A stretch of 10,685 bases of DNA, taken from contig JAKPTO010000039.1 of assembly GCA_029555085.1 (NCBI GenBank), positions 1 to 10,685 of the forward strand, given 5' to 3'. The notes below the pieces were generated by a model. The model saw nothing but the letters and a program-made list of their open reading frames with translations. It was not told where the DNA came from and made no database searches. Position numbers and translations under genes: made by a program. Source of the DNA: a bacterium. Its GTDB lineage: Bacteria; Patescibacteriota; Patescibacteriia; UBA1558; S5-K13. This document shows positions 1,784 through 10,684 of the stretch, in pieces (position 1 is the first letter of the stretch; every line of letters starts with the position of its first letter).

Positions 1784-2425
1784 TTAATTATGATGATAAA
1801 TTTGTTTTATAATATTAATTTTTTTTTTTAAGAAATTAGCGGTGTTATTTTGTATTTGTTTTTGCATAGAAGATTTTGCTATAAAATTCGGGTCTGGTAT
1901 TCCTTTTAGATTGATATGAACTGGTCCCTCGTAATTAATATAAGTTAGATCCCGATAACAATGATGAATTTTCTTATCATTACATCGAACAAACCCAATA
2001 AGAAGATTATTTTCAAATTTGACTGCGGTATAAGTGTATTTGTTTTGTATGGAGTTTAAATATGCGTTCATATATATTTTATGTGGCATATTATCAACTT
2101 TTTCAAAATCTAAAGGAATAAGATCACTAGTTGAGACGTTACCATTAAAATCAATAAAAATTATATTATCCCAAGTCATTGCGAGGGTGGAAATAGGTGA
2201 GATAAGGCCAAAATTCATAATTGACAAAAATTTATATTTATTATCAGTAATAACATTATAAGTTTTTGCTCTTGTTTTGGGATCGACAACATGTAATAAT
2301 TGATGTATATCATTTTCAGTTATCAAATCATTATAATATTTAAATAAAATTGGAAGAGGTATATTTCTATTATCTTTTTCTTTTAAAAATTTAAAAAAGT
2401 TATTTATATGTTGTTTTCTATTCAT
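1784..2425 (-). CDS. Array paralog 10 (213 aa), repeat-module protein of unknown function
   Basis: QHINNFFKFLKEKDNRNIP N-cap, FGLISP..FIDFNGN, AYLNSIQ, INLKGIPDPNF, NNTANFL C-cap. 8-nt overlap (ATGAATAG) with the upstream gene. Confidence 0.9.
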   Translation of the reverse strand: MNRKQHINNFFKFLKEKDNRNIPLPILFKYYNDLITENDIHQLLHVVDPKTRAKTYNVITDNKYKFLSIMNFGLISPISTLAMTWDNIIFIDFNGNVSTSDLIPLDFEKVDNMPHKIYMNAYLNSIQNKYTYTAVKFENNLLIGFVRCNDKKIHHCYRDLTYINYEGPVHINLKGIPDPNFIAKSSMQKQIQNNTANFLKKKINIIKQIYHHN

Positions 2426-3002
2426 AATTTTTTATATCATTTAAAAATTCGATAGTATTCATCAATACACGTTCTTGAAATTTATCCAATGGATTAAATC
2501 CGGGGTCGGGATATCCAAATTTATTAACATTAATTGGTTTATGACATGTTAATAATTGTTTTTTGCTGGCGTATGATATAAAGAGATTGGAAAAGAAATA
2601 AATTGTATAATATATAAAATCATTTTGTATTGAGTTCATATATGGGGCGATATATCTATCATATTGAAAATCAATTAATTTTTGTAAATCGGTGCCAGTT
2701 GTAGATTTTTTTCCATTAATATCGATGAATATTGGTCCGTTCACGGTAGTATTGGCAAATGCGATATAATCTGAAATGGTACCGAAATTATAAACCGATA
2801 TAAAGTGTGGTTTATTATTTACCATTTTATTAAAAATTTTTGTTCTTGTTGTTACATCCACATAATATTTTATCACATTGAGTTCGGTTTTGGTTAATTT
2901 ATCGGGGAACAAGATAAATTTTACGGCCGATGGTAAATTTCTATTATCTATTTCTTTTAAATGTAGGAAAAAGTTTTTTATATGTTGGTTATTCATTATC
3001 AT
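2418..3002 (-). CDS. Array paralog 9 (~194 aa)
   Basis: Track start 3026; ATG 3002 or 2996 aligns better with the paralogs. QHIKNFFLHLKE, FIDINGKKS, YMNSIQ, GYPDPGF, NTIEFL. Confidence 0.9.
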   Translation of the reverse strand: MIMNNQHIKNFFLHLKEIDNRNLPSAVKFILFPDKLTKTELNVIKYYVDVTTRTKIFNKMVNNKPHFISVYNFGTISDYIAFANTTVNGPIFIDINGKKSTTGTDLQKLIDFQYDRYIAPYMNSIQNDFIYYTIYFFSNLFISYASKKQLLTCHKPINVNKFGYPDPGFNPLDKFQERVLMNTIEFLNDIKNYE

Positions 3003-3627
3003 TTTGTTTCGATAAAAAAGTTTCAATTTTAGATAAAAATTCGGTTGTATTATTTTTTAAAGCTTGTTCAAATCCGGTTTTTGGTTTAAAGATTATTCGT
3101 AAGTTTCCATTTAAATCGACGCATATTGGATTACAATATTCTATTACTTTTTTTTCATTTTTATTATTGGTAAATATATAAGTGGTTATATGTGAAAAAA
3201 GGTTATTATTAGAATCATATAAGACATTATTAAACATAAAATTATTCTGTATAGTATTAAGATATGCGGCAGTAGGTTTATCTGTTATGCTTTTTCTTTC
3301 ACTGGTTAAAATATTAAAATTGTCAATACATTTTTCTCCGTTTACATTGATAAAGACTTGTCCCAGATTACTATAAGCGAGAGCGATATTTGGTGAATAA
3401 TCGCCGAATTTTCCAACTATATGAAATTTAAAAGGATGGTTTGTTATATGATTTAATATATTTGCTCTTTCAACTATATTAATATTATATTTAAAATTTT
3501 CAATATCCATATTTGTCATATAATCCGGAAAATAGATAAATTTTATTGAAACGGGTATTTCTTTATTATCTTTTTCTTTTAAATGTAGAAAAAAGTTTTT
3601 TATATATTGATCATCGTTTTTCAGCAT
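2989..3627 (-). CDS. Array paralog 8 (~212 aa)
   Basis: Likely start ATG 3627 (track 3645). QYIKNFFLHLKEKD, FGDYSPNIALA, FINVNGEK, AYLNTIQ, NNTTEFL. Confidence 0.9.
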   Translation of the reverse strand: MLKNDDQYIKNFFLHLKEKDNKEIPVSIKFIYFPDYMTNMDIENFKYNINIVERANILNHITNHPFKFHIVGKFGDYSPNIALAYSNLGQVFINVNGEKCIDNFNILTSERKSITDKPTAAYLNTIQNNFMFNNVLYDSNNNLFSHITTYIFTNNKNEKKVIEYCNPICVDLNGNLRIIFKPKTGFEQALKNNTTEFLSKIETFLSKQNDNE

Positions 3628-4279
3628 TTTTCTTTTTATCTTCAATTTTATTTAAATAATCAATTGTATAATTCAGTATTCTTTCTTGTTCTTCATTTTT
3701 TGGTACAAAATAAGGATTAGGATATCCTATTTCATTAACACATATGGGTAAATAAAAGGTTAATCCCCTTGGGTTATTATCAATTTCACATTTAGTTTTG
3801 TTGGAGATAATGAGATCATCAACGATATCAATATCAAAATAAGTATATTCACATTGTATTGTATTAAAATACGGTATTAATGTTTCCTCATATGGTGTAA
3901 CTTTATTCATAAATGACATTTTGGTAAGATTAAGTAAATCTGAAAAATTTGCATTTTTGATGCTTTTATTTCCATCAATATCAATAAACACACTATAATA
4001 ACCCGCGCCATTTTTATTTAAAACATATGCAACAGCAAGAGATGGTACAATCGTATCAAATTCTTGAACCATAAAGAATAAATCATTTTCTTTGATTAGA
4101 GCATTAAACATATTGGCTCTACGTATGGAATTAATTTCGTATTTTATAAATTTAAGATCCTCATTGGTTAATTTATCGGGAAACAAGATGAATTTTATGG
4201 TTGCCGATAAATCTCTTTTTTCTTTTTCTTTTAAAAATAAGAAGAAATTTTTTATATATTGATTATTATTTATCATCAT
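3611..4279 (-). CDS. Array paralog 7 (~222 aa)
   Basis: Likely start ATG 4279 or 4276 (track 4297). QYIKNFFLFLKEKE, VFIDIDGNKS, YFNTIQ, GYPNPYF. Closest relative of paralog 6. Confidence 0.9.
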   Translation of the reverse strand: MMINNNQYIKNFFLFLKEKEKRDLSATIKFILFPDKLTNEDLKFIKYEINSIRRANMFNALIKENDLFFMVQEFDTIVPSLAVAYVLNKNGAGYYSVFIDIDGNKSIKNANFSDLLNLTKMSFMNKVTPYEETLIPYFNTIQCEYTYFDIDIVDDLIISNKTKCEIDNNPRGLTFYLPICVNEIGYPNPYFVPKNEEQERILNYTIDYLNKIEDKKKNAEKR

Positions 4280-4940
4280 CTGCGGCTTTAATTTCATTTA
4301 GATAAAAAATTGTGTAATCCTTTATTAATTCTTCTTGTTCATCTTTTGGTTCGAAATAAGGATCGGGGTATCCCATTTCATTAACACATATAGGGTTATG
4401 GCTGGTTATAACCTTTTGATTCTTATCAATTTCATATTCAGTCTTATTGGAAACAATGAGGTTATCATCGATATCAAGGTCAAAATGAATATATTTAAAT
4501 TGTATTGAATTAAGATAAGCCATTATTGTTTCCTCATATGTTGTAAATGTTTTCAGAAATGTCTGTTTGAAAAAATTAAATCGCAAATTCGAAAAATTTG
4601 CACCTTTGACACTTTTATTTCCATCAATATCAATAAAGACGGTATAATAACCATACCCGTATTTGCTATGTGCATATGCAACAGCGAGAGATGGTACAAC
4701 TGAGTCAAATTCTTTAACCAGATAGTATTTTTCATTTTCTTTGATTAGTGTATTAAACACATTGGATCTATGTATGGGATTAATTTTGTATTTTATAAAT
4801 TTAAAATCATTATCGGTCATTTTATCGGGAAACAAAATGAATTTTATGGTTGTCGGCAAATTTCTTTTATCTTTTTCTTTTAGATGTAAGAAAAAGTTTT
4901 TTATGTGTTGGTTATTATCTTGTTTAAGAAAACATTTCAT
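4266..4940 (-). CDS. Array paralog 6 (224 aa)
   Basis: QHIKNFFLHLKEKD, VFIDIDGNKS, AYLNSIQ, GYPDPYF, YTIFYLNEI. Confidence 0.9.
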   Translation of the reverse strand: MKCFLKQDNNQHIKNFFLHLKEKDKRNLPTTIKFILFPDKMTDNDFKFIKYKINPIHRSNVFNTLIKENEKYYLVKEFDSVVPSLAVAYAHSKYGYGYYTVFIDIDGNKSVKGANFSNLRFNFFKQTFLKTFTTYEETIMAYLNSIQFKYIHFDLDIDDNLIVSNKTEYEIDKNQKVITSHNPICVNEMGYPDPYFEPKDEQEELIKDYTIFYLNEIKAADDDK

Positions 4941-4956
4941 ATTTTGTTGTTGGGTT

Positions 4957-5583
4957 TTATATTTGTTGAAGGTTTTTTTTGTTTTTCATGGCTTCTAATA
5001 AAAAAGAAGTGTTTTCATATATAAATTTTTCCGAATCAATTCTTGGTATGAAGTTTAAATCTGGATAGCCATTTAAATTGATATTTATTACTTTAAAATA
5101 CGTAATAGATCTATTTTGGTTGGTAGCATTTATCACAGTTTCGGGTGTGAGAAAAAGTCCATCCATATTATAAAGGTATTTGTAAGAGAAAACGGTTTGT
5201 ATAGTATTGATATATGCTGTTAATTCTTGAAGTTGTGAGATGCAGCCACTTTTGTTTAATTTTGTGTAGTCAATTCCATCGATGCTTTTATTACCATTAA
5301 TATCAATAAACATAGGCCCATTATAAAATGTTTGTGCAAGGGCGACTGTTGGGGAATATTCACCAAATTTGAAAACATTTCGGAAGAAAATATTTTTAAT
5401 TTTTTTATTAAATATATTTGCTCTTTCACTGGGACTAATAGTATATTTAAATAAATTGAAATCTTTATTTGTCATTTCATCATCAAACATAACACATTTT
5501 ACTATAAGAGGTATTTTTTTATTCTCTTTGTTTTCCATGAATTTAAAAAAGTTTTTGATGTGTTGGTTATTATTTATTATCAT
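4957..5583 (-). CDS. Array paralog 5 (~208 aa)
   Basis: Start ATG 5583 or 5592. QHIKNFFKFMENKE, FGEYSPTVALA, MFIDINGNKS, AYINTIQ, NLNGYPD, NTSFLL. Confidence 0.9.
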   Translation of the reverse strand: MIINNNQHIKNFFKFMENKENKKIPLIVKCVMFDDEMTNKDFNLFKYTISPSERANIFNKKIKNIFFRNVFKFGEYSPTVALAQTFYNGPMFIDINGNKSIDGIDYTKLNKSGCISQLQELTAYINTIQTVFSYKYLYNMDGLFLTPETVINATNQNRSITYFKVININLNGYPDLNFIPRIDSEKFIYENTSFLLEAMKNKKNLQQI

Positions 5584-6184
5584 AACATCCATATTTGTTT
5601 ACTTCGTTCAAAAATTCGACAGTATTTTTTTGTATATTTTTTTCTATAACATTTTTCGGTTTAAAGTCTGGTTCTGGTTGTCCATTTAAATTGACATTTA
5701 TCAATTTAGGGTAAGTAAACACTCTTTTATAATAGTTAAAAGGTGATACTATAAGATCATCAACAAAATGAATATCATTATATGAAAAAATTTTTTGTAT
5801 CGAATTTAAATAAGTGTTCAAAGCTTTAAGATAACAACCATTTGTAGTTTTTTTAAAAACGGAAAAATCAATATCTTTGACGCTTATATTTCCCTCAATA
5901 TCAATGAATATCCAACCTATATATTTAGAATAAGCAAGGGCTAATGATGGTGAGACCATACCAAATGTTTGAACAACAATAAAACGTTCTTCACGTTTTT
6001 TTATTCTATTAAAAATATTTGCTCTTATGAATGGATCGAAATCATATTTTAATATTTCCACATCCTTATTTGTTATCATATGGGGAAATGTGGTAAATTT
6101 CACCTCAAACGGTATGTTTTTGTCATCTTTTTCTTTTAAAAAATTAAAAAAATTTTTTATATGTTGGTTATTATTATTTTGCAT
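5570..6184 (-). CDS. Array paralog 4 (204 aa)
   Basis: QHIKNFFNFLKEKD, FGMVSPSLALA, FIDIEGN, YLNSIQ, NLNGQPEPDF, NTVEFL. Confidence 0.9.
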   Translation of the reverse strand: MQNNNNQHIKNFFNFLKEKDDKNIPFEVKFTTFPHMITNKDVEILKYDFDPFIRANIFNRIKKREERFIVVQTFGMVSPSLALAYSKYIGWIFIDIEGNISVKDIDFSVFKKTTNGCYLKALNTYLNSIQKIFSYNDIHFVDDLIVSPFNYYKRVFTYPKLINVNLNGQPEPDFKPKNVIEKNIQKNTVEFLNEVNKYGCYDNK

Positions 6185-6238
6185 AAAAAATACCTTATAT
6201 CAACCGCAAATATAATATGTTTTAGTTGATAAAGGTAT
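6185..6238 (-). terminator. Hairpin plus U-tract (terminator/attenuator-like) immediately before the paralog 4 start codon
   Basis: On the - strand ATACCTTTATCAAC(6238-6225) pairs with GTTGATATAAGGTAT(6204-6190, one bulge), followed by a T run and then ATG 6184. The 20-nt loop is long for a terminator and contains TATATTTG. Confidence 0.5.
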
Positions 6239-6269
6239 GTATTTATTTTCTTTTTTCCAAATAAAAATG

Positions 6270-6899
6270 TTATTTTCCGGCTAATTTATTTCTTAATTGT
6301 ATTTCATATAAAAAAGCAACAGTATTATGATGTACAATTTTTTGAAAGTCAGTTTCGATATTAAAATCCGGATCGGGATAACCGTTTTTATTAATATTTA
6401 TTCTCCGGTGAAAAATCATGTCGGCCGTGTGATGAATTCGATCATGTCCTTTAAATAGTGTAATATTTGCAATAAGAAGGTTACCATGTGTTTCAAGGCC
6501 ATGATAGGAGAAAGTATCTTGTATTGAATTAATATATGCGTTATATTCATGCAGATCTGATATATTTCCGGTCTTTTTTATTTTTGATAAATCAATTCCT
6601 TCGACAGTTTTATTACCATTAATGTCAATAAACATTGGACCCTCACGACTGTATGCTAGTGTAACTGATGGTGAATAACGGCTAAAATCCATAACAGCAT
6701 TAAAAAAATATTTTTTCTTAATTTTTTTGTTAAATAAATCTGCTCTTGTTTGTGAATCAAGTCCATATTTAAAGATTCCGATTTCTTGTTTTGTCAATTC
6801 ATCATCAAATAAGGTGAATTTTATTGAGAAAGGAATATTTCTTTTTTCTTTTTTTTCTATGAATTTAAAAAAGCTTTTTATATGTTGTTCATTTTTCAT
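6270..6899 (-). CDS. Array paralog 3 (~209 aa)
   Basis: Likely start ATG 6899 (track 6905). QHIKSFFKFIEKKE, FSRYSPSVTLA, MFIDINGNK, AYINSIQ, NKNGYPDPDF, NTVAFL. Confidence 0.9.
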   Translation of the reverse strand: MKNEQHIKSFFKFIEKKEKRNIPFSIKFTLFDDELTKQEIGIFKYGLDSQTRADLFNKKIKKKYFFNAVMDFSRYSPSVTLAYSREGPMFIDINGNKTVEGIDLSKIKKTGNISDLHEYNAYINSIQDTFSYHGLETHGNLLIANITLFKGHDRIHHTADMIFHRRININKNGYPDPDFNIETDFQKIVHHNTVAFLYEIQLRNKLAGK

Positions 6900-7938
6900 T
6901 ATCAATCAATTCTTTGGTGTTTGAAATGTCTACCTCATATTTATTTTTAATATTATCTGGAATCAAGTCAATACCATTTAAACTTGGAAGTCCTTTTTCA
7001 TTAATAAATATCGGTTGATGTTCGCCGGGATAGCATTTATATACTCGGAATAAATTGGTTGGAAGTCCTATCATATCTGGACGATCAATGTATTCATATT
7101 CGTATTTATTTTGTATTGTGTTAAAATAACTTAATAAATAATTAAGACTGAGTTGGCGATTATAGACTTTTCTATAAATGTCGGTTTTAAAATTAATACC
7201 AGTAAGATCTGGCTCACCATTGAGATTAATAAATCTTAATATTGGTCTCTCACTATATAGCGCTAATGCGATATTTTTAGCTACAACACCATAGTTTGAA
7301 ATATTGTAAAATAAGGGTTTTTTTATAAAAATATTAAGGAAAGTTGCTCTTTTTTGTGGTGTAGTATCTGGATTAAGTAAAATTTTTTTTAGTTTATTAG
7401 GATCGAGATCAATGTCTGTTATTGTACCGTTTTTATCAACAAACGTCAATTTCATATTTTCTAAATTTGGCGTTTTTTCCAAATCAATGATAATTGTTTC
7501 TGCTAGATTGGGAAATATGACTCCAAATGAATCTGTATTATAAAACACTTCTTTTTTCTTCAAAGAATTGAGATATGCGTCTCTATCTTTTCTATTTATA
7601 AGTTTGTTAATATCTATATTCCCAACATCAAATTCACCTTTTTTATTAATAAAATATGATATATGAAATTGGTTTTTTGACAAAATTGCAAATGCAATAT
7701 TTTTATCGTATTTACCAAATTGGTTAACGTGATAAAAATTGTTGCTCGTTATATTGTTAAAATATTTTGTTCTGATAACACTATAGTATGGGTTAGAATT
7801 ATAAAAAAGTTCATCAAAATCTTCTTTTGTTAATATATTAGGAAAAAATAAGACTTTATATAAAATTGGGATTTCTCGATTTTCACGTTTATTCAAGTAT
7901 TGAAAGAAATTTTTTATGTGTTGATTAATATTATTCAT
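6889..7938 (-). CDS. Array paralog 2 (349 aa, four internal repeat units)
   Basis: QHIKNFFQYLNKRE N-cap, repeats FINKKGE / FVDKNGT / FINLNGE / FINEKGL, C-cap NTKELI. 8-nt overlap ATGAATAA. Confidence 0.9.
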   Translation of the reverse strand: MNNINQHIKNFFQYLNKRENREIPILYKVLFFPNILTKEDFDELFYNSNPYYSVIRTKYFNNITSNNFYHVNQFGKYDKNIAFAILSKNQFHISYFINKKGEFDVGNIDINKLINRKDRDAYLNSLKKKEVFYNTDSFGVIFPNLAETIIIDLEKTPNLENMKLTFVDKNGTITDIDLDPNKLKKILLNPDTTPQKRATFLNIFIKKPLFYNISNYGVVAKNIALALYSERPILRFINLNGEPDLTGINFKTDIYRKVYNRQLSLNYLLSYFNTIQNKYEYEYIDRPDMIGLPTNLFRVYKCYPGEHQPIFINEKGLPSLNGIDLIPDNIKNKYEVDISNTKELIDNEK

Positions 7939-8572
7939 TTTTTTTAATTGGTAAATTATGTGGATTATATTTTTTTATTTCATTTAAAAAAGTATTGGTG
8001 TATTTTTGTATCATTTTCTGTTTTTCATTTTTTGGAACAAAATTTGGATCTGGCCAGCCCTTTGTGTTTACATTAATTGGTTGTAAGGAAAGAAAGGAAC
8101 GGTGGCCATCCTTTCTTTTAAAAGATGAATTATTATTTGTGTTAGTTGAAATAATAAGCCCATCTCTATATTCCAATAATTGATACGTAAAATCATCTTG
8201 GATTGAATTATAATATGCGGTCAAAAATCTAAGATTACCTTGTTTGTTGTTTATTTTTGAAAAATCAATACCCTCAACACTTTTTTCCACATTAAAATTA
8301 ATAAAAATATAACTCCAAGGAGTTACCGCAAAAGCAACCGATGGTGAAACAATACCAAATTCTTTAACTGTCCAGAATAAATTATCATGAATTTTTTTAT
8401 TAAATAATTTAGCTCTTGCTGACGCATGCATATCATATTTAATCATATTAATTTCATCTTCTGTTAATTCATTATTAAACAGAGAAAATTTCATTGAAAG
8501 AGGTATTTTTCGCCCGTCTTTTTCTTCTATGAAATTAAAAAAGTTTTTTATATGTTGTTTATTGTTGCCCAT
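7931..8572 (-). CDS. Array paralog 1 (213 aa)
   Basis: QHIKNFFNFIEEKD, FGIVSPSVAFA, AYYNSIQ, NTKGWPDPNF, YTNTFLNEI. 14-nt overlap with the 558-aa gene. Confidence 0.9.
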   Translation of the reverse strand: MGNNKQHIKNFFNFIEEKDGRKIPLSMKFSLFNNELTEDEINMIKYDMHASARAKLFNKKIHDNLFWTVKEFGIVSPSVAFAVTPWSYIFINFNVEKSVEGIDFSKINNKQGNLRFLTAYYNSIQDDFTYQLLEYRDGLIISTNTNNNSSFKRKDGHRSFLSLQPINVNTKGWPDPNFVPKNEKQKMIQKYTNTFLNEIKKYNPHNLPIKKNE

Positions 8573-10235
8573 GATTTTTATTTTGAATAAAATCTACGGT
8601 GTTATCATAAACATTTTGATAAAAATCATCGAGAGATTCTCTATCAAGTCCGGATACATCATATTGACCATGTATATTTATAAAAACCGGTGTATCAAAT
8701 GATATATTTGGTTTTGCAACAAATTTGTTTATATGTTTATCAAATGAATAAACAAGTTTAAAAACATCATCATGAAGTAAAATATTAAAATATTCCGTGT
8801 GGTGTGACATTAGTTTTCTTGGATCCAGACCAGAAACATCTTCTTCACCTTTTAAATTTAAAATGACATTTTTATAATTGGAACTTCGTCCCACATCATC
8901 TTCTATACTTGCAACTGCAATATAAAATGGATTTGTTTGTATTATTTGAGTTAGACGTGGATGATCAATATATTTTTGACTATTAGTTAGACTGTTCATA
9001 CAGGCAATTAATAGTGTATGATTCATATTTAGTGTTGGCTGCATTTTGACAACATTTCCATTTATATCAATGATTGTTGGTATACTCAAACCATCACTCG
9101 TTTTACTTCCAATATAAAGTTCTGATGTTTCGGGCAATCTGAAATACTCATCTATTTTAGAAACATAGTCATATTTAAAATTTTTTGTTTTGGTATTAAT
9201 ATATGCGGCTTTTTCTTTATTATTTAAATTATCAATATTTAGATTTTTTATACTTAAATCACCTTTATTATTAATAAAGAAACATGTAAATGGTTTGTCA
9301 TCAAAGGAAACGAGTATTGGAAAATCATTTTTTAATTTACTTTGAAGTTGTTTTGTATCATAATAAATTCTAACTTTTTTTCCGAATTTTTCATATAAAA
9401 ATTTTAAAAAATTTGATCGTTTGGTTTGAAAATCATATGTTGTTTTTTCAAAAGAAATTGGCCTATCTTGTCTTTCGGCATAAGAATCAATGATAACAAC
9501 ATTATCTGTTATAGATTTAAATTTGAACAATACGCCCTGACAAGTTTCTGATGAATGTATAAAACCGCCACAAATATCGTCAACAAACCCATTAATCCCT
9601 ATTTTTCTACATAAAATGTTAAAAAATGTAAGTGGAAACGTGAAATATTGTTTTTTATTTATACTTAAAAGATTTGCCAATTCAAAAATAAAAATCCACA
9701 ATAAATTAACCACGTTATTTACATTAACACGATAATCTCGATTATGCGGTTCTGTGATTGATGGGTCTTTTTTTAAGTATTTCTCATATAGCTTGGTTAC
9801 TTTTGGATTATTTTTATACATGTCGTATAATTTTTTAGCATACATATGACATTTTTCCTCATCTGACGATGATGTGTATAAAATACCATCTTTATCTTTA
9901 ATGGTAAACAATGTCACATATGGTCTATCATAACCAAAGGGAAAATGACGAATGAAACTTGTCCAACTATTGAGATTTAATTCGTCTTTAAATGATTTAA
10001 GTGGATAAAAATAATAACCGGTCGGTGTATTAAATTGATTTCTTTTGTTTATATCACTTGTGTGGATACTATCTCTGAATGATATACATACATTATCAAT
10101 ACCATGCTGTTCAATATAATCTTTTAATACATCCAGTGCCGGTCTACCCTGATAGTTTTTACTACGGAGCTCCTTTAATTCTGCCTCTTTAAGTATTGAA
10201 AATTGTTGTTCCGTTATTAGGATTTTCATTCTCAT
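8559..10235 (-). CDS. 558-aa multidomain protein: leader + putative ADP-ribosyltransferase-like domain + C-terminal repeat module homologous to the downstream array
   Basis: The ORF is secure (ATGA overlap with the upstream gene). The N-half has TPTGYYFYP (aa 70-78) and LCRKIGINGFVD..GFIHSSETCQGVLF (E230), resembling the G-x-Y-F / L..GYDG / E-x-V-x-F pattern of ART-fold domains. The C-half has SNFLKFLYEK, four IxxxG repeats and an NTVDFI cap. The ART call is tentative. Confidence 0.7.
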   Translation of the reverse strand: MRMKILITEQQFSILKEAELKELRSKNYQGRPALDVLKDYIEQHGIDNVCISFRDSIHTSDINKRNQFNTPTGYYFYPLKSFKDELNLNSWTSFIRHFPFGYDRPYVTLFTIKDKDGILYTSSSDEEKCHMYAKKLYDMYKNNPKVTKLYEKYLKKDPSITEPHNRDYRVNVNNVVNLLWIFIFELANLLSINKKQYFTFPLTFFNILCRKIGINGFVDDICGGFIHSSETCQGVLFKFKSITDNVVIIDSYAERQDRPISFEKTTYDFQTKRSNFLKFLYEKFGKKVRIYYDTKQLQSKLKNDFPILVSFDDKPFTCFFINNKGDLSIKNLNIDNLNNKEKAAYINTKTKNFKYDYVSKIDEYFRLPETSELYIGSKTSDGLSIPTIIDINGNVVKMQPTLNMNHTLLIACMNSLTNSQKYIDHPRLTQIIQTNPFYIAVASIEDDVGRSSNYKNVILNLKGEEDVSGLDPRKLMSHHTEYFNILLHDDVFKLVYSFDKHINKFVAKPNISFDTPVFINIHGQYDVSGLDRESLDDFYQNVYDNTVDFIQNKNHGQQ

Positions 10236-10684
10236 TCCACACCATATATTTTTTTCAATTGGTTTATTTGTTTTGGATAAAAATACATATTAATAACATA
10301 ATTATCCCAGTTTTTGATATAATATTCAATAAATTCACTGTAGTCGTAATCTCTTTCGCTAAGGTAGTTTTTAAATTTGATAATATCAAAATTATCATCG
10401 GGCATGAATATTTTATTTTGTCTTTTAAATAACTCCTCATCATTTTTGAAGTATTCTTCATTATAATATTTCTTGAGGAATTCTTTTCTTGACAATCTTA
10501 TCCATTCACCACCGGTGCGTCGATCAGTAATAAGTCTTTCATTTACCCAGAAAGCTCTTATCATATTTGGATTAAGATTTCCGATGAATAATGCCTGTGC
10601 TTCGGGTCCCTCATATAATGCCCATGCGAGTTCAGGTCTATCGGATTGATTTATTGCAGGATATTGGCTGGTTTTATGTTTTTC
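10232..10684 (-). CDS. Hypothetical protein, 5'-truncated by window edge (possible ART-like C-terminal motif)
   Basis: The frame of the track ORF 10232..10564 stays open to the window end: EKHKTSQYPAINQSDRPELAWALYEGPEAQALFIGNLNPN-MIRAFW..., so ATG 10564 is probably internal. Confidence 0.75.
   Translation of the reverse strand, partial: EKHKTSQYPAINQSDRPELAWALYEGPEAQALFIGNLNPNMIRAFWVNERLITDRRTGGEWIRLSRKEFLKKYYNEEYFKNDEELFKRQNKIFMPDDNFDIIKFKNYLSERDYDYSEFIEYYIKNWDNYVINMYFYPKQINQLKKIYGVE

What the first reader, a model, noticed from the sequence alone, without database searches (positions are those of the whole stretch)
1784..10235. One enzyme-fused gene followed by ten stand-alone diverged paralogs of its C-terminal module
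Seen: ten consecutive intact genes share the N-cap QHIKNFFxFLKEKxxRxIP, the core FG..SP..A.A..FIDxNG..AYLNSIQ and the cap G.PDP.F..NT..FL. The same module appears as the C-half of the 558-aa protein heading the array (SNFLKFLYEK ... AAYINT ... NTVDFI). No frameshifts are visible despite strong divergence, which suggests selection on each copy. Inference: a diversified binder repertoire tied to a modifying enzyme. The paralogs could be (a) swappable targeting adaptors, (b) donor cassettes recombined onto the enzyme, or (c) decoys or inhibitors of host defence proteins expanded as a gene accordion. I do not recognise this as a described system.
Basis: partly seen in the sequence, partly recalled or inferred. 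Interest (0 to 1): 0.85.

Follow-up and report, generated by a model that had tools for sequence, protein, structure and literature searches.

The report
Phage gene array of repeat proteins
A phage-like stretch of DNA binned with a tiny Patescibacteria genome carries one enzyme-like gene followed by ten diverged short copies of its repeat module, most likely a varied set of host-interaction proteins of a kind already known from large phages.

Summary
On the minus strand, a 558-aa gene (g0, 8559-10235) is followed by ten intact paralogs (g1-g10, 1784-8572).

- **Shared repeat:** g0's C-half and all ten paralogs carry a ~62-aa repeat that has no Pfam family. A profile built only from foreign proteins hits exactly these genes and three more paralogs on contig C4. 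That is 14 of 1277 ORFs in the genome.
- **g0 N-domain:** it belongs to an unnamed family of 1241 relatives. Its predicted fold and language-model features resemble phage ART-PolyVal ADP-ribosyltransferases. It has no Pfam hit and catalysis is unproven.
- **Context:** the neighbourhood is phage-like. It holds GP88, a Dcm methylase and PHROG hits. A CRISPR array and a Cas12f-like gene lie upstream. A T4-type head module sits on another contig of the same bin. Neither family was found in 40 related genomes.
- **Strain variation:** a related strain has g6 and g7 fused, g9 disrupted and g10 frameshifted.

Best reading: a phage multigene family of binder-like proteins alongside an ART-like effector. 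They may be capsid-packaged, like the T4 Alt and internal-protein genes or the head paralog families of giant phages. Function is inferred, not shown. This is a new variant of a known kind.

The parts
10232..10684 (-). C-terminal 150 aa of a 295-aa upstream ORF, cut by the contig end. It overlaps the g0 start by 4 bases.
   Evidence: One search shows the open-ended ORF. The full 295-aa form is seen in related-strain locus L107 at 5066-5953. It has no Pfam, PHROG or PADLOC hit.
9396..10235 (-). g0 N-domain (aa 1-280): an ART-superfamily-like fold with a helical insert. It is preceded by a leader ending L20-K21-E22.
   Evidence: AF2 model pLDDT 83.8, pTM 0.79. BFVD hits ART-PolyVal-like proteins at E 2.8e-4 and 1.2e-3. 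VIA gives Z 7.4 to 9k3a_B and Z 4.2-4.6 to ART toxins and PARPs. ESM Atlas scores ART-PolyVal clusters at 0.91. There are 1241 relatives. No Pfam hit.
8559..9425 (-). g0 C-half (aa 271-558): a linker with an N-cap-like SNFLKFLYEK, then about four degenerate 62-aa repeats. FIN..G-type hairpins lie at aa 320, 388, 458 and 518.
7931..8572 (-). g1, 213-aa paralog
   Evidence: 46.4 bits to the foreign unit HMM.
6889..7938 (-). g2, 349-aa paralog with a doubled module (four units)
   Evidence: two HMM domains; four unit matches, 99.4 bits.
6270..6905 (-). g3, 211-aa paralog
5570..6184 (-). g4, 204-aa paralog, the one modelled. It has N-terminal helices of low confidence, a beta-sheet at 68-94, a helix at 116-129, beta strands at 133-164 and a C-terminal helix at 179-202.
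   Evidence: pLDDT 78.8, pTM 0.70. No convincing solved-structure match.
4957..5592 (-). g5, 211-aa paralog
4266..4940 (-). g6, 224-aa paralog. It is fused with g7 in a related strain.
   Evidence: g6-g7 59% identity, the closest pair.
3611..4297 (-). g7, 228-aa paralog
2989..3645 (-). g8, 218-aa paralog
2418..3026 (-). g9, 202-aa paralog. In the related strain it is disrupted by a roughly 140-nt deletion.
1784..2425 (-). g10, 213-aa paralog, the last and most diverged. It is frameshifted near the C-terminus in the related strain.
   Evidence: 13.8 bits.

Best explanation
What it is. The array is a multigene family carried by a phage or a phage-derived element. The element is binned with a roughly 1-Mb Patescibacteria (Parcubacteria-like) genome from sludge and digester communities.

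- g0 is an effector-type protein. It has a short N-terminal leader, an ART-superfamily (ART-PolyVal-like) domain, and about four degenerate copies of a 62-aa helix-plus-beta-hairpin repeat.
- g1-g10, and three further genes on contig C4, are stand-alone short forms of the repeat module. Each has a highly conserved N-cap, one canonical repeat, one degenerate repeat and a C-terminal helix. g2 is doubled.
- The family arose by duplication of the repeat module, followed by tandem amplification. It is still being remodelled by unequal recombination and decay.

Proposed mechanism (inferred). The repeats form a conserved scaffold with variable loops that binds proteins. The paralogs are a diversified set of host-takeover or counter-defence binders, made alongside the ART-like enzyme. 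They may be loaded into the capsid through the conserved N-terminal segment, trimmed by a T4-type prohead protease and injected with the DNA. This would parallel T4 Alt plus the T4 internal-protein locus, and the tandem head-paralog families of giant phages.

Shown: homology, architecture, phage-like context, restriction to this lineage, and strain-to-strain copy variation.
Inferred: binding, packaging, injection, enzymatic activity and targets.
For: Shared repeat.
- The foreign 62-aa unit HMM hits only g0-g10 and three C4 genes, 14 of 1277 ORFs.
- The paralog HMM finds 4-13 tandem units in 10 of the 147 N-domain relatives that are stored, at full-sequence E <= 1.5e-9. So 'N-domain plus these repeats' is a recurrent architecture.

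N-domain.
- 1241 relatives at E <= 1e-3.
- Fold hits to ART-PolyVal-like phage proteins.
- Z 7.4 to an ejection-protein chain of the cyanophage A4 pre-ejectosome, and Z 4.2-4.6 to ExoA, MbcT, cholix, ParT and PARPs across the whole domain.
- ESM features score 0.91 with ART-PolyVal clusters that are 94-100% viral.
- Homologs lie in a 735-kb uncultured phage and in two viral contigs.
- One of those two viral records also carries Peptidase_S77.

Context.
- Neighbouring genes include GP88, Dcm, PHROG families and a metalloprotease.
- The same bin has a T4-type protease, major head protein, portal and large terminase on contig C35.
- Paralogs were found in 0 of 40 relatives, and the N-domain in 0 of 40.

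Leader.
- In 81 N-domain relatives, the residue two before the conserved Glu is L or I in 59 and LIVMF in 75.
- The Glu sits at a median position of 15.
- This matches the gp21 motif L/I-X-E and the 10-19-residue capsid-targeting propeptides described in PMC9026906 (passages).

N-cap.
- The paralog N-cap is the most conserved segment, at 61% mean pairwise identity against 17-49% elsewhere.
- It is modelled with low confidence.
- This echoes 'only a conserved CTS' in the T4 internal proteins (PMC3012670).

Dynamics and precedent.
- g6 and g7 are fused in a form seen on 14 contigs. g9 and g10 are broken in a related strain.
- SPN3US paralog family B has 20 head proteins, against two in phiKZ (PMC5694885).
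Against: - No direct evidence shows that any of these proteins is in a virion, is cleaved or binds anything.
- The contig with the head module (C35) is not physically linked to C14 or C4. Binning could have joined a phage of another low-GC host to this genome.
- A leader HMM from the N-domain family does not score the paralog N-caps significantly. The best is E 4.4, and g0 itself reaches only E 7.2. Four of 14 family members fall in the top 30 of 1277 ORFs.
- An L/I-x-E at the N-cap is present in only 7 of 10 window paralogs.
- Pfam's ART-PolyVal model does not hit g0.
- The H-Y-D triad reported for that family (PMC5512222) is not evident. The strand-1 Arg of g0 is Thr in many relatives.
- Fold scores against solved ARTs are modest (Z under 5).
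- The paralog model has no solved-structure match, so 'binder' rests on repeat architecture and the variability pattern only.
- dN/dS of 0.3-1.1 is compatible with relaxed constraint.
- A CRISPR array and a Cas12f-like gene lie next door, which could equally mark a cellular defence island.
Confidence: 0.45

Rival explanations
1. Trans-acting adaptors. Each stand-alone paralog docks onto the g0 ART-like domain, or replaces g0's own repeat module, and redirects the enzyme to a different substrate.
For: - The paralogs are homologous to the module that is fused to the enzyme.
- The genes are tightly packed and co-oriented, often overlapping, directly downstream of g0.
- In relatives, the N-domain is joined to varied C-terminal repeat regions, including WG repeats in P0031. 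This fits a constant enzyme with variable targeting parts.
Against: - A three-gene paralog array on C4 sits behind an unrelated 237-aa ORF with no enzyme-fused member beside it.
- g0 keeps its own repeat module.
- No stand-alone paralogs were found next to N-domain genes elsewhere.
- There are no binding data.
Confidence: 0.12
2. Structural or scaffolding head components. The paralogs would be inner-body, core or decoration proteins, like SPN3US paralog family B. They would be needed for capsid assembly or DNA packing rather than acting as effectors against the host.
For: - Giant phages carry tandem families of up to 20 head paralogs of unknown role (PMC5694885).
- Eight of the ten paralogs are basic, with pI 8.8-9.5. 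T4 internal proteins contact DNA through lysines (PMC3012670).
- A T4-type head module is present in the bin.
Against: - Copies are lost or broken in a related strain without loss of the locus. This argues against essential structural roles.
- The genes sit beside methylase and early-type genes, not in the head module.
- Repeat scaffolds with variable loops are more typical of binders.
Confidence: 0.13
3. Cellular genes of the Patescibacteria bacterium. The locus would be a strain-specific island, either a defence island beside CRISPR-Cas or effectors aimed at the bacterium's own host cell. The ART-like protein would be the toxin or effector and the paralogs would be sensors or immunity-like partners.
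For: - The locus is binned with a 99.4%-complete genome of matching GC: 27.7% for the contig, 26-33% for the genome's contigs.
- It lies directly downstream of a 15-repeat CRISPR array and about 5 kb from a Cas12f-like gene.
- ART-fold toxins with partner proteins are common in cellular conflict systems (ParT and MbcT appear among the fold hits).
Against: - 0 of 40 related genomes, including 3 of the same genus, have either family.
- All identifiable neighbours are phage-type.
- N-domain relatives sit in viral contigs and a megaphage.
- There are no PADLOC hits for g0, g2, g4 or their neighbours.
- The proteins have no signal peptides or membrane segments, judged by eye.
Confidence: 0.15
4. 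Silent donor cassettes that recombine onto g0 to swap its C-terminal module, as in antigenic-variation or orphan-toxin cassette systems.
For: - One long gene is followed by an array of copies of its C-terminal module.
- A motif at the g0 domain junction resembles the paralog N-cap.
- Recombination between paralogs does occur, as the g6/g7 chimera shows.
Against: - g0's C-half and the paralogs share only profile-level similarity.
- blastn finds no g0-paralog DNA match (it compared C14 only with other contigs).
- Each paralog has its own start codon and a full ORF.
- Synonymous-codon identity at the N-cap is 0.73, no higher than at the AYLNSIQ motif at 0.72.
- g0 is identical in the related strain while the paralogs vary.
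Confidence: 0.03

Closest known systems
Phage T4 Alt plus the internal-protein (IPI/IPII/IPIII) locus with capsid-targeting sequences
   Same: - An ADP-ribosyltransferase-type protein and a set of small, mutually diverged proteins whose best-conserved part is a short N-terminal segment.
- A T4-type prohead protease (Peptidase_S77) is in the same bin.
- The N-domain family shows an L/I-x-E junction 9-53 residues from the start. This matches the gp21 motif and the 10-19-residue propeptides (PMC9026906).
- T-even internal proteins are described as diverse anti-defence proteins sharing only the CTS (PMC3012670).
   Different: - There is no sequence relation to Alt or the IPs.
- Alt is an R-S-E enzyme of another ART clade (PMC5512222).
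- The paralogs here are homologous to one another and built of a repeat, unlike the unrelated T4 IPs.
- Cleavage and packaging are not shown. The L/I-x-E is imperfectly conserved in the paralogs.
ART-PolyVal domains of polyvalent proteins (Pfam PF18760; Iyer et al. 2017, PMC5512222)
   Same: - Phage-borne ART-fold domains fused to varied other modules, predicted to be delivered with the DNA.
- The best fold and feature matches of the g0 N-domain are to this family.
- A separate 146-aa gene about 2 kb upstream in the related strain gives a sub-threshold PF18760 hit: 23.1 bits against a cut-off of 31.2.
   Different: - g0 does not match the Pfam model.
- The published H-Y-D active-site pattern is not apparent. 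The family's invariant residues are T70, P71, G73, Y75, I226 and E230.
- g0 has two parts, not the 2-15 disparate domains of a polyvalent protein.
Tandem head-paralog families of giant phages (SPN3US paralog family B, 20 members; phiKZ inner-body paralogs)
   Same: Long runs of diverged paralogs in a phage with a gp21-like protease. Member numbers vary widely between related phages (PMC5694885).
   Different: Sequences were not compared here. Virion location is proven for SPN3US and unknown here. The present family derives from the repeat module of an enzyme-fused gene.
WG-containing beta repeats (Pfam PF14903)
   Same: Recalled consensus only, from no call: a hydrophobic-x-x-G-x-A strand followed by a hydrophobic-(I/F)-(D/N)-x-x-G hairpin. 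One N-domain relative, P0031, carries a genuine WG_beta_rep at 29.9 bits, cut-off 25.6.
   Different: No paralog, nor g0, matches PF14903. Repeat-rich relatives give at best E 0.51. The unit here is 62 aa and includes a helix, against 35 aa for the WG repeat.

Membership tests
ART-PolyVal (PF18760) | Match to the Pfam model at or above the gathering score | tested here: not met
   g0 has no Pfam family at E <= 1. Ten N-domain relatives also have none at E <= 0.01.
ART-PolyVal (PF18760) | ART-superfamily fold | tested here: met
   - Foldseek on BFVD hits ART-PolyVal-like proteins at E 2.8e-4 and 1.2e-3, probability 1.0, TM 0.34-0.37.
- VIA gives Z 4.2-4.6 to ExoA, MbcT, cholix, ParT and PARPs across residues ~26-261.
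- ESM Atlas scores 0.91 with 173 shared features.
- This is moderate strength, and all of it rests on predicted models.
ART-PolyVal (PF18760) | H (strand 1), Y (strand 2), D (strand 5) active site (PMC5512222) | tested here: inconclusive
   - Strand 1 of the family reads SF[R/T], with no His.
- Y75 is invariant.
- An invariant E230 precedes the later strand.
- Residues were placed by motif order only. No structure superposition was available.
Alt/VIP2-type R-S-E ADP-ribosyltransferases | Arg on strand 1, an S-T-S-like motif on strand 2, and a catalytic Glu before strand 5 | tested here: inconclusive
   g0 has R54, T70-P-T72 and E230 in that order. However, R54 is Thr in many relatives, and there is no sequence match to any solved ART.
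T4-type capsid-targeted internal proteins | A T4-type prohead protease encoded by the same phage | tested here: inconclusive
   Peptidase_S77 scores 75.4 bits on contig C35 of the same bin, and 0 of 14 control genomes ring. Head, portal and terminase genes lie beside it. No physical link between C35 and C14 or C4 was found.
T4-type capsid-targeted internal proteins | A short N-terminal propeptide ending in L/I-x-E | tested here: inconclusive
   - N-domain family: L or I at the third residue before the cut in 59 of 81, with the Glu at a median position of 15.
- g0 has L20-K21-E22.
- Paralogs: L/I-x-E at the N-cap in 7 of 10 window copies.
- The leader HMM is not significant on the paralogs.
T4-type capsid-targeted internal proteins | Presence in virions and ejection into the host | not testable with these tools
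   This needs particle proteomics.
WG_beta_rep (PF14903) | Match to the Pfam repeat model | tested here: not met
   None of the 9 window paralogs scanned (g9 was not scanned) nor g0 matches at E <= 1. Six repeat-rich relatives reach at best E 0.51.
Orphan-cassette or antigenic-variation arrays | DNA-level homology between the expressed gene and the cassettes, with cassettes lacking their own starts | tested here: not met
   There is only profile-level protein similarity. Every paralog is a complete ORF with a start codon. The N-cap shows no excess synonymous conservation.
Known anti-phage defence systems (PADLOC-DB) | Match to a defence-protein model | tested here: not met
   g0, g2, g4, the 295-aa ORF and the 146-aa ORF have 0 families. 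Only the C4 475-aa protein matches, to Cas12f/Cas12u3 at 1e-84.

The most novel reading that the evidence does not exclude
A phage of an ultra-small Patescibacteria bacterium uses a previously undescribed 62-aa repeat scaffold as a programmable binder. The scaffold is fused once to an injected ART-like enzyme and is expanded into 13 free-standing, capsid-delivered variants. Each variant neutralises or retargets a different host (or host's-host) protein. This would be a modular 'enzyme plus swappable binder' counter-defence repertoire that expands and contracts between strains.
Probability: 0.12. Interest if true: 0.8.

Novelty: new variant of a known kind. Interest (0 to 1): 0.55.

Why it matters
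Three things stand out.

- **An unnamed protein family.** The search exposes a large family with 1241 relatives. It has an ART-like fold and a conserved cleavable-looking leader. It looks like a widespread class of phage-delivered proteins.
- **An undescribed repeat.** The 62-aa repeat recurs behind that domain as 4-13 tandem copies.
- **A rare look at phage biology in Patescibacteria.** Very little is known about phages associated with this group. This one carries a T4-type head module, a CRISPR array with a Cas12f-like gene, and a strain-variable 13-member gene family.

If the paralogs prove to be injected binders, they would be a natural library of small binding scaffolds. They would also give a handle on which host proteins matter during infection of these uncultured bacteria.

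Tried and rejected
**Family and homolog searches that found nothing**
- Pfam, PHROG and PADLOC scans of g0 and the paralogs gave nothing usable.
- Rfam and tRNA scans of the window gave nothing.
- The ESM Atlas search for paralog g4 gave only sub-0.9 leads with no common family.
- Foldseek on PDB with the paralog model gave a best E of 0.32, to beta-propeller fragments.
- VIA-wide with the paralog model gave a best Z of 4.4, over 60 residues only. So no fold assignment was made.
- A profile search of PDB sequences with the N-domain gave only spurious low-complexity helical matches.
- The paralog profile found no relatives in viral contigs, none in genome contigs and none among longer proteins (weak evidence).
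- In 5.8 billion proteins it found only this species' own copies.

**Other tests with no useful result**
- The promoter and terminator scan showed no excess over shuffles: 75 against 82 promoter-like sites, and 2 against 3.4 terminator-like sites.
- Contig-end overlap and blastn did not link C14 to other contigs.
- Spacers of the neighbouring CRISPR array have no protospacer in the genome or in the fetched loci.
- The leader-HMM test of the N-cap lacked power, since g0 itself scored only E 7.2.
- Complex prediction of the g0 N-domain with paralog g4 returned no verdict: score 0.00, mark 0.32, controls not run. It is not used as evidence either way.

**Sequencing runs**
- The look-up of sequencing runs listed 14 runs holding at least half of the sampled words, from activated-sludge, digester and other metagenomes.
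- It also listed six RNA-labelled runs, with shares of 0.91 (RNA status only a guess), 0.26, 0.22, 0.21, 0.21 and 0.19, and a seventh at 0.16.
- None of these runs could be laid, so I draw no conclusion about expression or about which genes they cover.

**Papers**
The supplementary domain alignments of PMC5512222 might already contain this N-domain family, and I could not check.
- I found no description of the 62-aa repeat or of this array in searches. These were word searches, so they cannot find a sequence family that has no name.

Full report
**Observation**

The window is a whole contig, C14 (10,685 bases). It belongs to a 1.02-Mb, 53-contig genome rated 99.4% complete. Its minus strand carries eleven consecutive intact ORFs:
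- g0 is 558 aa (8559-10235).
- g1-g10 are 202-349 aa and run from 8572 down to 1784. Most overlap by a few bases or are tightly spaced.

An HMM of the nine scores each member at 256-285 bits. It hits g2 twice, so g2 is a doubled module. All ten carry Q[HY]I[KN][NS]FF near the start. In 26%-GC DNA, ten open frames of about 200 codons are far beyond chance.

**Is g0's C-half the same module?**

Direct comparison is weak:
- The paralog HMM gives 20.8 bits in two stretches.
- Profile-profile comparison of the paralogs with the C-halves of g0 and its 50%-identical ortholog P0007 scores 35-40, probability 46-71%, P 3.6e-5.
- It aligns in several registers, as expected of repeats. The best of 21 reversed or shuffled controls reaches 17.1.

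The decisive test came from elsewhere. The paralog HMM, positions ~51-114, matches 4-13 tandem copies of a ~62-aa unit. These lie in the C-terminal regions of ten other proteins that share g0's N-domain, with full-sequence E from 5.8e-45 to 1.5e-9. The ten were among 147 stored hits.

I built an HMM from 32 such units of seven foreign proteins. Its consensus is SSLRAAYFNQKLGTNKFEEVEEFGKYGDDIALATLKDGEKVFINREGEPDIEGVDVNKINDS. That HMM hits exactly 14 of the genome's 1277 ORFs of at least 80 aa at E <= 0.01:
- g0, at 46.7 bits;
- g1-g10;
- three further paralogs on contig C4.

g0's C-half holds about four degenerate units (hairpins at aa 320, 388, 458 and 518). Each simple paralog has an N-cap, one canonical unit, one degenerate unit and a C-terminal helix.

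**The paralog protein**
- An AlphaFold model of g4 built on an 11-row alignment has pLDDT 78.8 and pTM 0.70. The first ~50 residues are of low confidence. The model shows a three-stranded sheet at 68-94, a helix at 116-129, further strands at 133-164 and a long C-terminal helix.
- Neither Foldseek (best E 0.32) nor the Foldseek-independent aligner (best Z 4.4 over 60 residues) finds a convincing solved relative.
- Pfam has no model for the repeat. WG_beta_rep appears only in one N-domain relative, P0031, and as a trace at E 0.51 in another.
- Conservation is uneven. The N-cap (residues 8-22) is the most conserved stretch, at 61% mean pairwise identity. Residues ~38-52, 106-110 and 126-166 are the most variable, at 17-26%, and contain indels.
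- Eight of the ten paralogs are basic, with pI 8.8-9.5.

**The g0 N-domain**
- A profile of g0, P0007 and P0008 finds 1241 proteins at E <= 1e-3, 280 of them at <= 1e-10, among 1.84 billion representatives. Nearly all of the best 150 match profile positions ~40-270.
- Ten of these hits have no Pfam family, and the ones looked up are unnamed.
- A model of residues 1-280 built on a 40-row alignment has pLDDT 83.8 and pTM 0.79.
- Its best matches among viral models include ART-PolyVal-like proteins (E 2.8e-4 and 1.2e-3, probability 1.0) and a 'large polyvalent protein associated domain' protein.
- In the PDB, the top match is chain B of the cyanophage A4 pre-ejectosome (Foldseek E 4e-3; Z 7.4 over 167 residues).
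- It is followed by ART toxins and PARPs that span the whole domain at Z 4.2-4.6.
- Language-model features point the same way. ART-PolyVal clusters score 0.91 with 173 shared features, in 17 of 30 hits, and AcrIF11-type ARTs score 0.86.

It is not supported at family level:
- PF18760 does not hit g0.
- The H-Y-D site described for ART-PolyVal (PMC5512222, passages) is not visible.
- The family's invariant residues are T70, P71, G73, Y75, I226 and E230.
- g0's R54 is Thr in many relatives.
- Catalysis is an open question.

**Context**

RpoB places the genome in Patescibacteria. It is 95% identical to one MAG and 75% identical to a Parcubacteria-group MAG.

Two related-strain metagenome contigs extend the window on both sides. 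L107 is 99.2% identical to the window. L106 is 94.5-96.5% identical within g4-g10 and 99.2% identical in the flank.

Upstream of g0 lie, in order going outward:
- the complete 295-aa ORF, of which the window holds the last 150 aa;
- a CRISPR array of 15 repeats with period 66 and 14 spacers;
- a 146-aa gene with a sub-threshold ART-PolyVal hit of 23.1 bits;
- ORFs identical to the right end of contig C4.

So C4 joins C14 across the array. C4 carries a 475-aa Cas12f/V-U3-like protein (E 1e-84), a lone repeat and the three extra paralogs.

Downstream lie a Dcm methylase, GP88 (PF17338), DUF6927 and several PHROG families.

Another contig of the bin, C35, has a T4-type head module:
- Peptidase_S77 at 75.4 bits, with 0 of 14 control genomes ringing;
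- a major head protein;
- a portal;
- a large terminase.

Neither the paralogs nor the N-domain were found in 40 related genomes, including 3 of the same genus. N-domain homologs occur in a 735-kb uncultured phage and in two viral contigs. In one of these, the homolog is 1187 aa and sits beside baseplate-like genes (my reading, not tested). That record also has Peptidase_S77.

The simplest reading is a phage, or a large phage-derived element. I found no physical link between C14/C4 and C35, and mis-binning cannot be excluded.

**A leader shared by the N-domain family**

In 81 relatives where a Glu-[A/K]-[R/K] junction could be located, three things hold:
- The residue two before the Glu is L or I in 59 and LIVMF in 75.
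- The next residue is A or K in 66.
- The Glu lies at a median position of 15, range 9-53.

This is the pattern of T4 head proteins. The gp21 protease cuts after L/I-X-E, and internal proteins carry 10-19-residue capsid-targeting propeptides (PMC9026906, passages). g0 has L20-K21-E22 at the aligned site.

For the paralogs the idea is only suggestive:
- Their N-cap, the most conserved segment, contains L/I-x-E in 7 of 10 window copies.
- A leader HMM does not score them significantly. It has little power, since g0 itself scores only E 7.2.
- Four of 14 family members fall within the top 30 of 1277 ORFs.

The resemblance of the N-cap to the T4 IPIII leader is a recollection of mine, not a tool result.

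**Dynamics and selection**
- P0002 is a 226-aa protein seen on 14 contigs in four public sources. It is the N-terminal third of g6 joined to the rest of g7, and L106 carries it in place of both genes.
- In L106, g9 lacks about 140 nt and g10 is frameshifted near its end.
- g0-g3 are identical in L107.
- g4, g5, g8 and g9 differ by 5-12 substitutions, with dN/dS of 0.33-1.13.
- Among paralogs, dN/dS is 0.28-0.9 and dS is 0.45-1.6.
- The family is therefore old. It is under moderate or mixed constraint and is still gaining and losing members.
- Synonymous-codon identity at the N-cap (0.73) is no higher than at another conserved motif (0.72). So the N-cap is conserved as protein, not as a DNA recombination site.

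**Interpretation**

Best reading (confidence 0.45): this is a phage multigene family built on a conserved repeat scaffold with variable loops. It is expressed alongside an ART-like effector that carries the same scaffold. Its likely role is host takeover or counter-defence, and it may be delivered through the capsid.

The closest described systems are:
- the ART-bearing polyvalent proteins (PMC5512222);
- the tandem head-paralog families of giant phages, such as the 20-member family B of SPN3US (PMC5694885).

Rivals are trans-acting adaptors for g0 (0.12), structural head components (0.13), a cellular island beside CRISPR-Cas (0.15) and recombination cassettes (0.03).

**Novelty**

Both protein families are unnamed in the libraries searched. 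The stand-alone expansion was found only in this lineage, and the host group is poorly explored. The kind of system, however, is known: an injected ART plus diversified paralogous phage proteins. I rate it a new variant of a known kind, with interest 0.55.

**Limits**
- All structural evidence rests on predicted models.
- Function, packaging and binding are inferred.
- Paper supplements could not be read.

Noticed in passing
L107:3987-4946 (related strain); lies in the gap between G000 contigs C4 and C14: A bona fide CRISPR array lies directly upstream of the 295-aa ORF and g0. It has 13 perfect and 2 degenerate 36-nt repeats with period 66, and 14 spacers of 29-31 nt. Spacers 2 and 3 are identical. 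The degenerate repeats are at the g0-proximal end. No spacer matches the genome or the fetched loci.
   Followed up: partly
L022 (G000 C4):12209-13636 and 13867-13902: A 475-aa Cas12f / type V-U3-like (TnpB-like) protein scores PADLOC E 1e-84. A single exact copy of the CRISPR repeat follows 230 bases downstream. Several unrelated ORFs separate it from the main array.
   Followed up: partly
G000 C35:17153-27614 (L113): A T4-type head module sits in a Patescibacteria bin. It holds a major head protein (phrog_138), a prohead protease (Peptidase_S77, 75 bits), a portal (phrog_213) and a 1044-aa large terminase. Nearby ORFs start with the same 'M..I.LTE.(Q/E)L' leader as g0. The same contig also has Hsp20-like and ClpB/C-like ORFs; that is my reading of the N-termini and is untested.
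   Followed up: partly
L107:3240-3680: A 146-aa stand-alone gene gives a sub-threshold ART-PolyVal hit: PF18760, 23.1 bits, cut-off 31.2. It would be a second ART-like gene on the same element.
   Followed up: no
window:10232-10684 and L107:5066-5953: The 295-aa ORF just upstream of g0 starts with the same kind of leader (MKIIITENQ...) and contains a VYHGFSS stretch. By eye that resembles the H-G-[ST] start of H-Y-type ARTs. Pfam, PHROG and PADLOC find nothing. No fold prediction was made.
   Followed up: partly
window:1088-1580: This stretch has higher GC (36-38%, against about 26% in the array). It has no ORF conserved between strains, no Rfam hit and no tRNA. It lies where the array and the oppositely oriented methylase-side genes converge.
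   Followed up: no
window:1580-1753 (-) and L106:4203-4499: A 98-aa ORF that is intact in the related strain survives only as a 57-aa C-terminal remnant in the window. So the boundary just past g10 also differs between strains.
   Followed up: partly
window:1-126 (+) and L106:5953-6945: The window's left end is the C-terminus of a 330-aa C-5 cytosine DNA methyltransferase (PF00145, phrog_116). GP88 (PF17338), DUF6927 and other PHROG families lie beyond it.
   Followed up: yes
L104:6787-15649 (85-kb viral contig, estimated 33% complete): The 1187-aa N-domain homolog has a different C-terminal repeat, with W-containing motifs. At least four adjacent genes begin with similar short leaders (F..L..E-type). 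This suggests a block of proteins that share an N-terminal targeting signal.
   Followed up: no
L022 (G000 C4):5607-8444: A second array holds three paralogs of 251, 204 and 248 aa. It follows a 237-aa ORF that matches neither the N-domain nor the repeat. So arrays of this family can exist without an adjacent enzyme-fused member.
   Followed up: partly
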